64,000 bases of DNA from Malacoraja senta (Eukaryota): positions 25,856,001 through 25,920,000 of the forward strand of contig CM075987.1 of assembly GCA_038087875.1 (NCBI GenBank). Reading direction: 5' to 3'. The notes beneath the pieces were generated by a model, which made no database searches, was not told the origin of the DNA, and was given only the letters and a program-made list of their open reading frames with translations. The translations under genes were made by a program, and so were the position numbers. Of this stretch, positions 6,903-19,934 are shown one piece after another (within the stretch, counting starts at the first letter, position 1; the number at the start of each line of letters is the position of its first letter).

Positions 6903-7218
6903 TGCGGCACGGTGGCGCAGCGTAGAGTCACTGCCTTACAGCGCCAGATACCCGGGTTCGATCCTGACTACGGGTGCTGTCTGTACGGAGTTTGTACGTT
7001 CTCCCCGTGACCTGCGTGGGTTTTCTCCGGGTGCTCCGGTTTCCTCCCACACTCCAGAGACGTGCAGGTTTGTAGGTTAATTGGTATTTGGTGAAATTTG
7101 TAAATTATCCCTAGTGTGTGTAGGATAGTGTTAATGTGCAGGGATCGCATGTCAGTGCGGACTCGGTGGGCCGAAGGGCCTTATTCCATGCTGTATCTCT
7201 AAACTAAACTAAACTAAA
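6903..7218 (+). mobile_element. HE1-like V-SINE, full length
   Basis: Same architecture. Further full or partial copies lie near 226-540, 3656-4005, 6573-6733, 8365-8535, 12170-12448, 13230-13910, 21255-21558, 27665-27888, 29557-29968, 36205-36850, 38125-38692, 46017-46250, 58580-58850 and 61060-61185. Confidence 0.9.
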
Positions 7219-19102: not shown

Positions 19103-19669
19103 CACGTTGCTTGTACAGCTGACTGACACAGGAATACTTTTGTGGTAGAAATACCTATGATAATAAATGTACCCACCCACCTGTAGAACAAGGTCAAGAC
19201 TGTATGGGTGACGTTCTGTCAGCACTGCGGCAAAGTACTCCAAAGACGTACAGGTTTGTAGGTTGATATAAGTGTAAAATTGGCCCTAGTATGTGTAGGT
19301 TAGTGTTAGTGTGCGGGGATCGCTGGTCGGTGCAGACTCAGTTGTCTGAAGGGCCTGTTTCCGCACTGTATCTCTAAACATAACTAAACTAAATTAAATG
19401 TATTGCATGGTCTATGGCATGGGCCAATAATTGCAAAGAAATGTCAATAATAGTCACTGACTACTATGCACAGTCTAAGTGATTAGTCAAGGATTGGTTT
19501 GGAAGTTCGTTTGGAAGGATGAATTCTTACTTTAAAACACTGAAACACAAATATGCTGAAATTTCAAAAAATTGGCTCATTGTGAGACATTCTTTCAGAA
19601 CTCAGCTTGTGACTATGGAGTTCATTTCTATGTTTACACAAAAAATTGATTCCTAACATTAACTACAAT

Positions 19670-19810
19670 ATCTTCTTCTTGCGTGTGGCGTGCACAGCCT
19701 AAAGTTGTAGGACAACTTGTTCTATTTGATCTTATTTGATTGTGCACGCCAGGTTGATTGCATTCGTCGAAACAGGGCGGACCACGTGAAGGTTGCAATC
19801 TCCCACCCCC
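19670..19810 (-). mobile_element. 141-bp ribozyme-headed short retroposon with (aag)n tail
   Basis: 9-bp TSD aactacaat at 19661-19669 and 19811-19819; 3' end ...ccacacgcaagaagaaga. Confidence 0.8.
19756..19809 (-). ncRNA. minimal HDV-like self-cleaving ribozyme (predicted)
   Basis: GGGGUGG GA GAUUGCA ACC UUCACGU GGU CCGCCCU GUUUCGA CGAA UGCAAUC. P1, P2 and P3 pair fully, with G1-U wobble, a 7-nt L3 and J4/2 CGAA. Confidence 0.8.
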
Positions 19811-19934
19811 AACTACAATTTAACAGATCATTTTTAATGTCAGTGTTCCAAAACCTTGTTCTGGCTGCACTTCACACCCACCACCCTCATCTTTGGACAC
19901 CCTGTGCGTAGGGGAGAGGGTAGGGCTGAAGATG

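What the first reader, a model, noticed from the sequence alone, without database searches (positions are those of the whole stretch)
19670..19810. Tiny retroposon headed by a minimal HDV-like ribozyme
Seen: the minus strand reads (G)GGGGUGG-GA-GAUUGCA-ACC-UUCACGU-GGU-CCGCCCU-GUUUCGA-CGAA-UGCAAUC. This gives P1 GGGGUGG/CCGCCCU with G1-U, P2 GAUUGCA/UGCAAUC (7/7), P3 ACC/GGU, L3 UUCACGU, a G available for P1.1, P4 shrunk to a UUCG-sized loop, and J4/2 CGAA (putative catalytic C at 19766). The fold begins within 1 nt of the element 5' boundary, which is defined by a 9-bp TSD. The element ends in (aag)n. Established: HDV-like ribozymes process the 5' ends of R2, RTE and ingi/L1Tc retrotransposons, and genomic HDV has C75-G-A-A. 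Inference: this is a promoterless, ribozyme-released SINE-like family (no tRNA head) carrying one of the smallest possible HDV folds, mobilised by an RTE- or Ingi/Vingi-type LINE. I cannot tell whether it is already catalogued.
Basis: partly seen in the sequence, partly recalled or inferred. Interest (0 to 1): 0.92.

Follow-up and report, generated by a model that had tools for sequence, protein, structure and literature searches.

The report
Short retroposon headed by minimal HDV-like ribozyme
This is one copy of a young, abundant short mobile element that begins exactly with a 54-base HDV-type self-cutting RNA fold inherited from a longer parent element, a known strategy seen here in an unusually stripped-down form.

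Summary
On the minus strand, 19809-19756 is a 54-nt HDV-like nested double pseudoknot: P1 7 bp with G1.U, P2 7 bp, P3 3 bp, L3 UUCACGU, J4/2 CGAA with C at 19766, and no P4 helix. It sits one base inside a 9-bp target-site duplication, in a 139-nt element ending in (AAG)n. The family is real: 3142 exact hits of an internal 22-mer and 425 exact copies of the 54-nt fold in the 1.94-Gb genome. In an unselected sample, 23 of 29 copies with an unambiguous duplication start exactly at G1.

I found the parent. It is an RTE-like LINE (one endonuclease plus reverse-transcriptase ORF, about 3.1 kb) with the same 54-nt fold at its 5' end and the same last ~17 nt plus (AAG)n. Older short copies are plain internal deletions of it.

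Seven related RTE-like elements from metagenome contigs carry HDV-like ribozymes at the same place, with covarying P1, P2 and P3 and the same L3 and J4/2. Rfam recognises four of them. A model built from the relatives alone finds the window copy at E 2e-5.

Cleavage itself is untested. This is a known kind (RTE 5' ribozymes, R2 SIDEs, NARTc) in a new P4-less form.

The parts
19811..19819 (-). Target-site duplication, upstream copy (ATTGTAGTT)
   Evidence: repeated at 19661-19669. One search finds it as an 11-mer with 1 mismatch.
19810..19810 (-). One extra G between the duplication and G1 of the fold
   Evidence: Of the 30 best-matching copies, 6 have an unambiguous duplication; 4 of these (L001, L002, L013, L020; L001 and L002 are one duplicated locus) carry 5 G and 2 carry 4 G.
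19756..19809 (-). 54-nt HDV-like ribozyme fold: P1 19809-19803 / 19780-19774; J1/2 19802-19801; P2 19800-19794 / 19762-19756; P3 19793-19791 / 19783-19781; L3 19790-19784; G38, U39 and linker 19773-19767; J4/2 CGAA 19766-19763
   Evidence: Descriptor parse. Model R1, built from relatives only, matches 19809-19772 at 34.6 bits, E 1.9e-5. 425 exact copies in the genome.
19766..19766 (-). Putative catalytic cytosine, first base of J4/2
   Evidence: A C stands at this position in all 9 aligned ribozymes. It is not among the places where 10% or more of laid contigs differ (table 3).
19729..19755 (-). Spacer derived from the LINE 5' UTR (AACCTGGCGTGCACAATCAAATAAGAT)
   Evidence: Compare the LINE 5' ends L153, L154 and L155, which read AACCCGACGTGCACAAACAAATAGATG.
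19687..19750 (-). 3' domain: 10-bp long-range stem GGCGUGCACA (19750-19741) with UGUGCACGCC (19696-19687), enclosing the hairpin AAGUUGU (19718-19712) / ACAACUU (19708-19702)
   Evidence: Minimum-free-energy fold. Whole-element z-score is only -1.53.
19681..19693 (-). 3'-terminal block GCACGCCACACGC, shared with the LINE 3' end (GCA[T/C]GCCATACGC)
   Evidence: LINE 3' ends L145 and L147.
19670..19680 (-). Microsatellite tail AAGAAGAAGA(T)
   Evidence: All 30 copies shown end in (AAG)n.
19661..19669 (-). Target-site duplication, downstream copy

Best explanation
The element is a short, internally deleted, non-autonomous derivative of an RTE-like LINE. It is SINE-like in size and copy number but has no pol III head. 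It keeps the two ends of the parent that matter: the 54-nt HDV-like self-cleaving ribozyme at the 5' end, and the last ~17 nt plus the (AAG)n tail at the 3' end.

Inferred mechanism:
1. A copy is transcribed as part of a longer host or read-through transcript.
2. The ribozyme folds as it is made and cuts immediately 5' of G1. This gives an RNA whose first base is the first base of the element.
3. The LINE's endonuclease and reverse transcriptase recognise the 3' end and tail. They copy the RNA into a new site by target-primed reverse transcription, leaving a 7-16-bp duplication.

Shown here: the fold, its homology to HDV-family ribozymes of related elements, the exact 5' ends of genomic copies, and the shared ends with the LINE.

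Inferred, not shown: cleavage, dependence on read-through transcription, and which LINE copies supply the protein.
For: 1. Fold. All helices and core bases are present. L3 UUCACGU, the CCCUGU that ends P1 and runs on into P1.1, and J4/2 CGAA are identical to the CPEB3 ribozyme consensus printed. CPEB3 likewise has a P1.1 of one G-C plus a U.U and a 4-nt J4/2 (PMC4836649, passages read).

2. Exact 5' ends. In 60 copies taken in genome order from an anchor in the 3' half, 52 had both ends recognisable and 40 had a duplication. Of these, 29 were unambiguous: 23 start at G1 (4 G), 4 have 3 G, 1 has 5 G and 1 has 6 G. In contigs of four public runs, likeness to the family stops at 19809 in 41, 31, 1 and 195 contigs, which then run on into unlike sequence (table 7).

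3. Parent LINE.
- Its 3' ends L145 and L147 read ...CCCTTGATCTGCA(T/C)GCCATACGC(AAG)n after a CCHC-knuckle ORF end.
- L154 carries the same 54-nt fold, with T in place of G1, then a ~55-nt leader and the ORF start. L153 carries the fold from J1/2 on.
- A near-full copy spans about C1:194036900-194040000.
- The listed longer relatives are mostly about 1000 aa with endonuclease and RT domains, on contigs of about 3.2-3.4 kb.
- The older short copies L146 and L149 are simple LINE 5' plus LINE 3' joins.

4. Relatives.
- Seven distinct RTE-like elements from metagenome contigs (L158, L162, L172, L179, L208, L213, L223) have the same motif upstream of the ORF.
- Over 9 sequences, 151 of 153 helix cells pair, and 13 of 17 positions show changes on both sides.
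- P2 (63 of 63 cells paired) and J4/2 (CUAA, CUAAA, CCAA or CGAA) were not part of the search criteria.
- Rfam scores L213 as CPEB3_ribozyme at 55.6 bits (gathering score 35). It scores L162, L172 and L158 as HDV-F-prausnitzii at 41.6, 30.9 and 30.3 bits, E 1e-4 to 0.05.

5. Model test. Model R1, built from the 5' halves of the seven relatives only, finds window 19809-19772 at 34.6 bits (E 1.9e-5) and L154 at 32.1 bits. The next window hit scores 12.8 bits.

6. Variants. Within the fold, the places where 10% or more of laid contigs differ (table 3) are all compatible with it:
- J4/2 second base, G to U or A.
- P1 U5.G to U5-A.
- P1 G6-C to G6.U.
- A base of the linker.

7. HDV-like ribozymes at RTE 5' ends, and their role in freeing promoterless elements from co-transcripts, are described in PMC6765202 (passages read).
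Against: - No cleavage assay and no RNA 5'-end data exist for this element.
- Rfam finds no HDV-family match in the window copy at E up to 10, nor in the parent LINE's 5' end L154 at E up to 1.
- P4, which stacks under P1.1 in HDV and CPEB3, is missing. P1.1 is only one G-C pair plus a U.U. The activity could therefore be low.
- Part of the pairing count is by construction, because the sequences were picked by descriptors that require P1 and P3 (and also P2) to pair.
- Only 5 of the 24 metagenome loci with N-terminal cover gave a descriptor hit. The rest are unexplained: they may have a truncated 5' end, another ribozyme, or none.
- No intact ORF of the parent LINE was seen. The longest open frames were 422 aa among the 150 of 1179 N-terminal candidates scored, and 406 aa among the 150 of 3884 C-terminal candidates scored. 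So the present-day source of protein for a family with copies 98-100% alike is not identified.
- An internal promoter that starts transcription at G1 would give the same genomic 5' ends.
Confidence: 0.8

Rival explanations
1. Relic fold. The 54-nt sequence descends from a true RTE ribozyme, but loss of P4 has left it catalytically dead or very slow. The uniform 5' end comes from something else, such as transcription starting at G1 from an internal promoter (as Pr77 does in L1Tc/NARTc). The conserved structure would then serve protein binding or translation.
For: - P4 is absent and P1.1 is weak.
- Rfam models do not score it.
- L1Tc's first 77 nt are both a promoter and a ribozyme (PMC3383444, abstract read).
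- HDV-like ribozymes of R2 and L1Tc are proposed to aid translation and to bind R2 protein (PMC6765202, passages read).
Against: - P4-less 'minimal' HDV-like ribozymes have been reported active in vitro (preprint 10.1101/2023.06.13.544163, passages read).
- All core bases stay fixed between the LINE and all short-element subfamilies seen, while the adjoining spacer changed more. By my eye, that is 2 changes in 54 nt against about 4 in 27 nt.
- The frequent variants all preserve pairing.
Confidence: 0.13
2. An ordinary pol III SINE with an unrecognised head. The HDV-like pairings would be a chance resemblance, and GTTTCGA would be a degenerate B box.
For: - The size, copy number and duplications are SINE-like.
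- GTTTCGA loosely resembles the tRNA B box. The B-box consensus is recalled, not taken from a call.
- A loose descriptor hits once per roughly 64-128 kb by chance.
Against: - ARAGORN finds no tRNA, and Rfam finds no tRNA, 5S or 7SL likeness at E up to 10.
- The same 54 nt head a protein-coding LINE.
- The relatives' ribozymes are recognised by Rfam HDV-family models.
- Model R1 links them to this copy.
- The linker holding GTTTCGA is where relatives have a P4 hairpin.
Confidence: 0.03
3. The short element is moved by a different, still intact RTE-like family of this genome rather than by the LINE whose ends it shares. Candidates are the families at about 44% or 35% identity, with open frames of 886 to 1014 aa.
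For: - Intact-looking frames of those families appear.
- No intact frame of the parent family was seen.
Against: - The short element's 3' end matches the parent family's 3' end.
- 311 nt upstream of one 44%-identity copy (L156) gave no match to model R1.
- The 3' ends of those other families were not seen.
Confidence: 0.15

Closest known systems
HDV-like ribozymes at the 5' ends of RTE and other non-LTR retrotransposons (Ruminski et al. 2011, as cited in PMC6765202; the original paper was not held)
   Same: A double-pseudoknot ribozyme sits at base 1 of a promoterless single-ORF LINE. Cleavage 5' of G1 is taken to free the element from a co-transcript. The tail is microsatellite-like, which is typical of RTE-related retroposons (PMC6007223, abstract read).
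   Different: P4 is absent here and the whole ribozyme is 54 nt. The seven relatives found here measure 67-78 nt and have a P4 hairpin.
R2 SIDEs (short internally deleted elements; PMC3414825, abstract read) and NARTc of Trypanosoma cruzi (PMC3185411 and PMC3383444, abstracts read)
   Same: These are non-autonomous elements made of the parent's 5' HDV-like ribozyme joined to its 3' end, and they are moved by the parent's protein.
   Different: R2 SIDEs are rare and specific to rDNA sites. This family is dispersed, with at least 3142 copies. It has since reshaped its middle into a 10-bp long-range stem.
Mammalian CPEB3 ribozyme (Rfam RF00622; PMC4836649, passages read)
   Same: The L3 (UUCACGU) is identical. 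P1.1 is one G-C plus a U.U. J4/2 is the 4-nt CGAA. G1 pairs with U (consensus compared).
   Different: CPEB3 is a single-copy intronic sequence with a P4 stem. The P1 and P2 sequences differ. The CPEB3 model does not score the window copy.
Minimal P4-less HDV-like ribozymes: drz-Mtgn (Riccitelli et al. 2014, not held) and theta ribozymes of gut phages (preprint 10.1101/2023.06.13.544163, passages read)
   Same: P4 is missing and the length is about 50-55 nt.
   Different: Those come from metagenomes and phages, where they sit beside tRNAs. This one heads a retrotransposon of a large eukaryotic genome.

Membership tests
HDV-like (delta-like) self-cleaving ribozymes | Nested double pseudoknot: P1 and P2 cross, P3 lies inside, and P1.1 forms between L3 and the bases after P1 | tested here: met
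   One search gives the parse: P1 7 bp, P2 7 bp, P3 3 bp. P1.1 is C22-G38 plus U21.U39, read from the sequence. The topology is as described in PMC4908430 and PMC4836649 (passages read).
HDV-like (delta-like) self-cleaving ribozymes | Catalytic cytosine as the first base of J4/2 | tested here: met
   C at 19766. A C stands there in all 9 aligned ribozymes.
HDV-like (delta-like) self-cleaving ribozymes | Core L3 with U at its first position and G at its sixth (the U20.G25 pair), and a G1.U or G1-C cleavage-site pair | tested here: met
   L3 is UUCACGU and P1 opens with G1.U. All 9 sequences have L3 of the form U-Y-C-N-Y-G-Y.
HDV-like (delta-like) self-cleaving ribozymes | P4 helix | tested here: not met
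   Only a 5-nt linker UUCGA lies between P1.1 and J4/2. P4 is not essential to the class, since minimal variants lack it (preprint 10.1101/2023.06.13.544163, passages read).
HDV-like (delta-like) self-cleaving ribozymes | Match to curated covariance models (Rfam HDV_ribozyme, CPEB3_ribozyme, HDV-F-prausnitzii and others) | tested here: not met
   No match for the window copy at E up to 10, nor for L154 at E up to 1. Four relatives do match. A model built from the relatives finds the window copy at E 1.9e-5.
HDV-like (delta-like) self-cleaving ribozymes | Helices supported by covariation among homologues | tested here: met
   13 of 17 positions have changes on both sides, and 0 of 2000 shuffles reach the observed pairing. 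Caveat: P1 and P3 pairing was a selection criterion. P2 pairing was not a criterion.
HDV-like (delta-like) self-cleaving ribozymes | Site-specific, divalent-ion-dependent self-cleavage 5' of G1, lost when the catalytic C is changed to U | not testable with these tools
   Only indirect support: genomic copies begin at G1.
Internally deleted non-autonomous derivative of a LINE (SIDE type) | Shares both its 5' end and its 3' end with an autonomous element of the same genome | tested here: met
   5' end: L153, L154 and L155. 3' end: L145 and L147. Simple join forms: L146 and L149.
Internally deleted non-autonomous derivative of a LINE (SIDE type) | Insertions show the marks of target-primed reverse transcription: variable target-site duplications and the parent's tail | tested here: met
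   A duplication of 6-16 bp was found in 24 of the 30 best-matching copies. In the unselected sample of 60, it was found in 40 of the 52 copies with both ends recognisable. The (AAG)n tail is seen.
RTE clade of LINEs (the parent) | Single ORF of about 1000 aa with an AP-endonuclease and a reverse transcriptase, element of about 3.2 kb, short UTRs, microsatellite-like tail | tested here: met
   Relatives. ORF start ~55 nt after the fold. Span of one copy. That these features define RTE is partly recalled.
RTE clade of LINEs (the parent) | Phylogenetic placement of the RT among named RTE references | not tested
   No named reference sequences were at hand.
SINE in the strict sense | Head derived from tRNA, 5S or 7SL RNA with a pol III promoter | tested here: not met
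   ARAGORN finds none. Rfam finds none at E up to 10.

The most novel reading that the evidence does not exclude
This is a naturally P4-less, 54-nt, catalytically active HDV-like ribozyme in a large eukaryotic genome. It would be among the smallest natural members of the class and the first tied to a retrotransposon.

With 425 identical copies and thousands of near-identical ones, it would scatter self-cleaving sites through host transcripts.

Its core is base-for-base that of the mammalian CPEB3 ribozyme, and one related RTE-like element carries a 5' ribozyme that passes the Rfam CPEB3 threshold. Together these would make an RTE 5' ribozyme the likely ancestor of the CPEB3 ribozyme.
Probability: 0.3. 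Interest if true: 0.7.

Novelty: new variant of a known kind. Interest (0 to 1): 0.5.

Why it matters
If the 54-mer cleaves, it gives four things.
- A natural lower size limit for HDV-like ribozymes in a eukaryote.
- A case where a ribozyme plus about 17 nt of 3' end are enough for a retroposon to reach thousands of copies.
- A compact natural 5'-processing module.
- A concrete lead on the unexplained origin of the CPEB3 ribozyme, through the shared core and the CPEB3-like RTE ribozyme in L213.

It also means that hundreds of young, intact self-cleaving motifs lie scattered in this genome. Where they sit in sense orientation inside genes, they would cut host pre-mRNAs. That can be tested by looking for orientation bias.

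Tried and rejected
- Rfam on the window copy: nothing relevant at E up to 10. ARAGORN: no tRNA.
- The plain minimum-free-energy fold of the element is not unusual (z -1.53). It cannot show a pseudoknot.
- Searches for a LINE with an identical ribozyme 3' half, identical last 22 nt or identical spacer, using negated positions, gave only 16, 3 and 5 hits. Almost all were indel variants of the short element.
- L045 looked like a possible LINE 5' end but has no LINE ORF.
- The 30 best RVT_1 loci of the genome have no (AAG)n within 1.5 kb and belong to other LINEs.
- The parent was finally found through three odd hits of a 3-mismatch pattern search.
- The look-up of sequencing runs: no RNA holder listed.
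- Read laying used contigs only, so it shows no RNA starts, ends or strand.
- The 5' region of a second RTE-like family (L156, 311 nt) gave no ribozyme hit. The stretch may be too short.
- 19 of the 24 metagenome loci with N-terminal cover gave no descriptor hit. This was not resolved.
- MAFFT could not align the 3' halves of P4-less and P4-bearing ribozymes. I therefore counted pairs from descriptor parses and modelled only the 5' half.
- Earlier-findings look-ups gave nothing for this genome.
- Ruminski 2011, Webb and Luptak 2011 and Jimenez 2015 are not held. Riccitelli 2014 was not looked up.
- Literature searches listed no description of this family. Repbase and Dfam could not be searched.

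Full report
**What is there.**
Read on the minus strand, the stretch runs as follows:
- a 9-bp ATTGTAGTT (19819-19811);
- one G (19810);
- a 139-nt element (19809-19671), whose tail AAGAAGAAGA is followed by a T (19670);
- ATTGTAGTT again (19669-19661).

A descriptor scanner that I wrote parses the first 54 nt as an HDV-type nested double pseudoknot:
- P1: GGGGUGG / CCGCCCU, with G1.U and U5.G.
- J1/2: GA.
- P2: GAUUGCA / UGCAAUC.
- P3: ACC / GGU.
- L3: UUCACGU.
- Then G38 and U39, a 5-nt linker UUCGA, J4/2 CGAA (C at 19766), and the P2 3' strand.

There is no P4 helix.

**Is it a family?**
Yes.
- A DNA search of the window's own 1.94-Gb assembly gave 1479 candidates, and the 40 that were scored are 98-100% identical.
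- An internal 22-mer occurs 3142 times.
- The exact 54-nt fold occurs 425 times.
- All 30 best-matching copies end in (AAG)n, and a target-site duplication was found in 24 of them.
- Older subfamilies exist. They differ in J1/2 (AA for GA), in J4/2 (CUAA for CGAA), in the P1 partner of U5 (A for G) and in the spacer.

**Where copies begin.**
I took 60 copies in genome order, anchored only on the 22-mer in the 3' half.
- 52 had both end motifs recognisable by my regexes. By eye, the other 8 comprise 3 full-length but mutated copies and 5 truncated or interrupted ones.
- 40 of the 52 had a detectable duplication.
- In 29 of these 40 the duplication does not run into the G tract, so the first base is unambiguous.
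- Of the 29, 23 have exactly four G, meaning they begin at G1 of P1. Four have three G, one has five and one has six. L123 and L124 are one duplicated locus.
- In the 30 best matches, 6 copies are unambiguous. Four of them have five G (L001 and L002 are one duplicated locus) and two have four G.

In Logan contigs of four coded public runs, likeness to the family stops at 19809 in 41, 31, 1 and 195 contigs. These contigs then continue into mutually unlike sequence. At the other end, likeness stops at 19671-19675 (table 7).

The predicted cleavage site is therefore the family's modal 5' end.

**Chance.**
- With a loose descriptor, the 128,000 bases of the window (both strands) give 2 hits with C at the catalytic place and up to 5 with control letters. 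The fold alone is weak evidence.
- With P2 of at least 6 bp and no P1 mismatch, 353,492 bases of this genome give 1 hit, which is this one.
- With the same settings, 549,568 bases of metagenome loci give 8 hits. Seven are at RTE 5' ends.
- A hit beginning on the first base of a retroposon is far beyond that background.

**The parent LINE.**
Searches that demanded identical ends next to non-family sequence failed. A 3-mismatch pattern search then gave three odd tails. Two of them, L145 and L147, are LINE 3' ends: a CCHC-knuckle ORF end followed by ...CCCTTGATCTGCA(T/C)GCCATACGC(AAG)n. They share the last ~17 nt and the tail with the short element.

- The RT part (L152) has longer relatives that are mostly about 1000 aa, with Exo_endo_phos and RVT_1 domains, on contigs of about 3.2-3.4 kb. 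The best is P0001, 1019 aa and 63% identical.
- Searching with the N-terminus of P0001 found a near-full copy (C1:194037028 onward; its C-terminal match is at 194039893) and other 5' ends.
- Three 5' regions were fetched. L154 reads TACT, then (T)GGGTGGGAGATTGCAACCTTCACGTGGTCCACCCTGTTTCAACTAATGCAATC, then a ~55-nt leader and the ORF start MP(L/I)VTRNPNGPS.
- L153 has the fold from J1/2 onward, behind a piece of another repeat. L155 is truncated inside the fold.

The LINE thus begins with the same 54-nt P4-less fold. It has U5-A in P1 and CUAA in J4/2.

The old short copies L149 and L146 are simple joins of the LINE's first ~100-115 nt to its last ~25 nt. The window-type subfamily has since changed its middle. 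A 5'-UTR-derived GGCGUGCACA now pairs with the 3' UGUGCACGCC.

By my count, about 14 of the 36 hits to a 21-mer at the ORF start belong to this LINE. That compares with 3884 candidates for its 3' end. This is the usual 5'-truncation profile.

No intact ORF of this family was seen among the candidates scored.

**Relatives.**
An alignment of P0001 with 15 relatives was used to fetch 73 metagenome loci. Of the 24 with N-terminal cover, 5 gave a strict descriptor hit just upstream of the ORF.

A second search asked only for the L3 motif, P3 pairing and P1 with at most one mismatch, over all 73 loci. It found L158, L162, L172, L179, L208, L213 (L214 has the same sequence) and L223. It also found two rows in L226, which I dropped because they have no P2 and no J4/2.

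Every one of the seven has a perfect 7-8-bp P2 and a J4/2 of CUAA, CUAAA or CCAA, although neither was asked for in that search.

Over these seven plus the window copy and L154:
- 151 of 153 helix cells are standard pairs.
- 13 of 17 positions show changes on both sides.
- 0 of 2000 partner shuffles reach the observed pairing.

This count is inflated for P1 and P3, which were selection criteria.

The relatives measure 67-78 nt and carry a P4 hairpin exactly where this family has UUCGA. L223 is nearly identical to the window copy through P3, L3 and P1.

**Independent recognisers.**
Rfam scores L213 3575-3658 as CPEB3_ribozyme at 55.6 bits (gathering score 35, E 1e-12). It scores L162, L172 and L158 as HDV-F-prausnitzii at 41.6, 30.9 and 30.3 bits (gathering score 44). 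It scores L162 also as HDV_ribozyme at 32.6 bits. It does not score L223, L179, L208 or L154.

A covariance model of the 5' half (P1, P3, L3) built from the seven relatives only finds window 19809-19772 end to end at 34.6 bits, E 1.9e-5. It finds L154 at 32.1 bits. The next window hit scores 12.8 bits.

**Core.**
L3 UUCACGU, the CCCUGU that ends P1 and runs on into P1.1, and CGAA before P2 are identical to the CPEB3 consensus printed. CPEB3 is described as having a P1.1 of one G-C and a U.U, a 4-nt J4/2 holding the active cytosine, and a U20.G25 pair (PMC4836649, passages read). The same bases are present here.

**Variation.**
In the laid contigs, the ribozyme places where 10% or more differ are 19765 (J4/2 second base), 19768 (linker), 19778 (U5.G to U5-A) and 19779 (G6-C to G6.U). 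None breaks a pair or touches C19766 (table 3). The tool warns that a missing row does not prove sameness.

**Known context.**
- HDV-like ribozymes in RTEs and baggins elements, which lack their own promoters and are freed from co-transcripts, are reviewed in PMC6765202, which also mentions their use by some non-autonomous SINEs (passages read).
- Ribozyme-plus-3'-end derivatives are known for R2 (SIDEs; PMC3414825, abstract read) and for L1Tc/NARTc (PMC3185411 and PMC3383444, abstracts read).
- P4-less minimal HDV-like ribozymes are known from metagenomes and phages (preprint 10.1101/2023.06.13.544163, passages read).
- About 50 nt is given as the minimum for a proficient double pseudoknot (PMC4870747, passage read).

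My searches listed no paper describing this family or a P4-less HDV-like ribozyme on a retrotransposon. Repbase and Dfam could not be searched, and key primary papers were not held.

**Verdict.**
The site is a genuine member of the HDV-like ribozyme class by fold, core bases, position and homology. It heads an RTE-like LINE and that LINE's abundant internally deleted derivative.

Catalysis, promoter independence and the present protein source remain untested.

It is a new, minimal variant of a known kind, of moderate interest. The CPEB3-like core is a side lead worth following.

Noticed in passing
L213:3575-3658 (same sequence in L214): The 5' ribozyme of an RTE-like element on a metagenome contig, ending about 25 nt upstream of its ORF, matches Rfam CPEB3_ribozyme at 55.6 bits (gathering score 35, E 1e-12). 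This hints that the mammalian CPEB3 ribozyme descends from an RTE 5' ribozyme.
   Followed up: partly
window 19661-19830 and G000:C11:25927975-25928117 (L002): L001 (the window copy) and L002, 52 kb downstream and just outside the window, share the element and both flanks. The region is part of a recent segmental duplication. The pairs L123/L124, L132/L133 and L142/L143 on C1 are duplicates of the same kind.
   Followed up: no
window 19741-19750 with 19687-19696, minus strand: In the young subfamily, a segment derived from the LINE 5' UTR (GGCGUGCACA) has become perfectly complementary to the LINE-derived 3' end (UGUGCACGCC). This closes the 3' half into a long stem. In the LINE the two segments match only partly, by eye.
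   Followed up: no
L145 and L147, 3' ends: The LINE reading frame (...STLDLHAIRKKK) runs into the (AAG)n tail with no stop codon in either copy seen. The relative P0001 ends ...LDLNL.
   Followed up: no
L153:160-235; L048; L049: These are chimeric copies. In L153 the first bases of the LINE ribozyme are replaced by a piece of another repeat behind a long G run. In L048 and L049 unrelated repeat sequence is joined directly to the TGTGCACGCCATACGC(AAG)n tail. They look like template switches during reverse transcription.
   Followed up: no
window ~19300-19400, minus strand: Another short interspersed repeat lies 3' of the element (…gatacagtgcggaaacaggccc…). The same repeat type interrupts several family copies: L043, L044, L120 and L136.
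   Followed up: no
G000:C6:42561809-42562288, C1:165943516-165943995, C8:937080-937556, C4:35489081-35489557: Other RTE-like families of the genome, 44% and 33-35% identical to P0001's N-terminus, have open frames of 886 to 1014 aa and may be intact. Their ends were not seen.
   Followed up: partly
L212, minus strand, position 6936: This is the one HDV-descriptor hit in the metagenome loci that is not at a recognised RTE 5' end.
   Followed up: no
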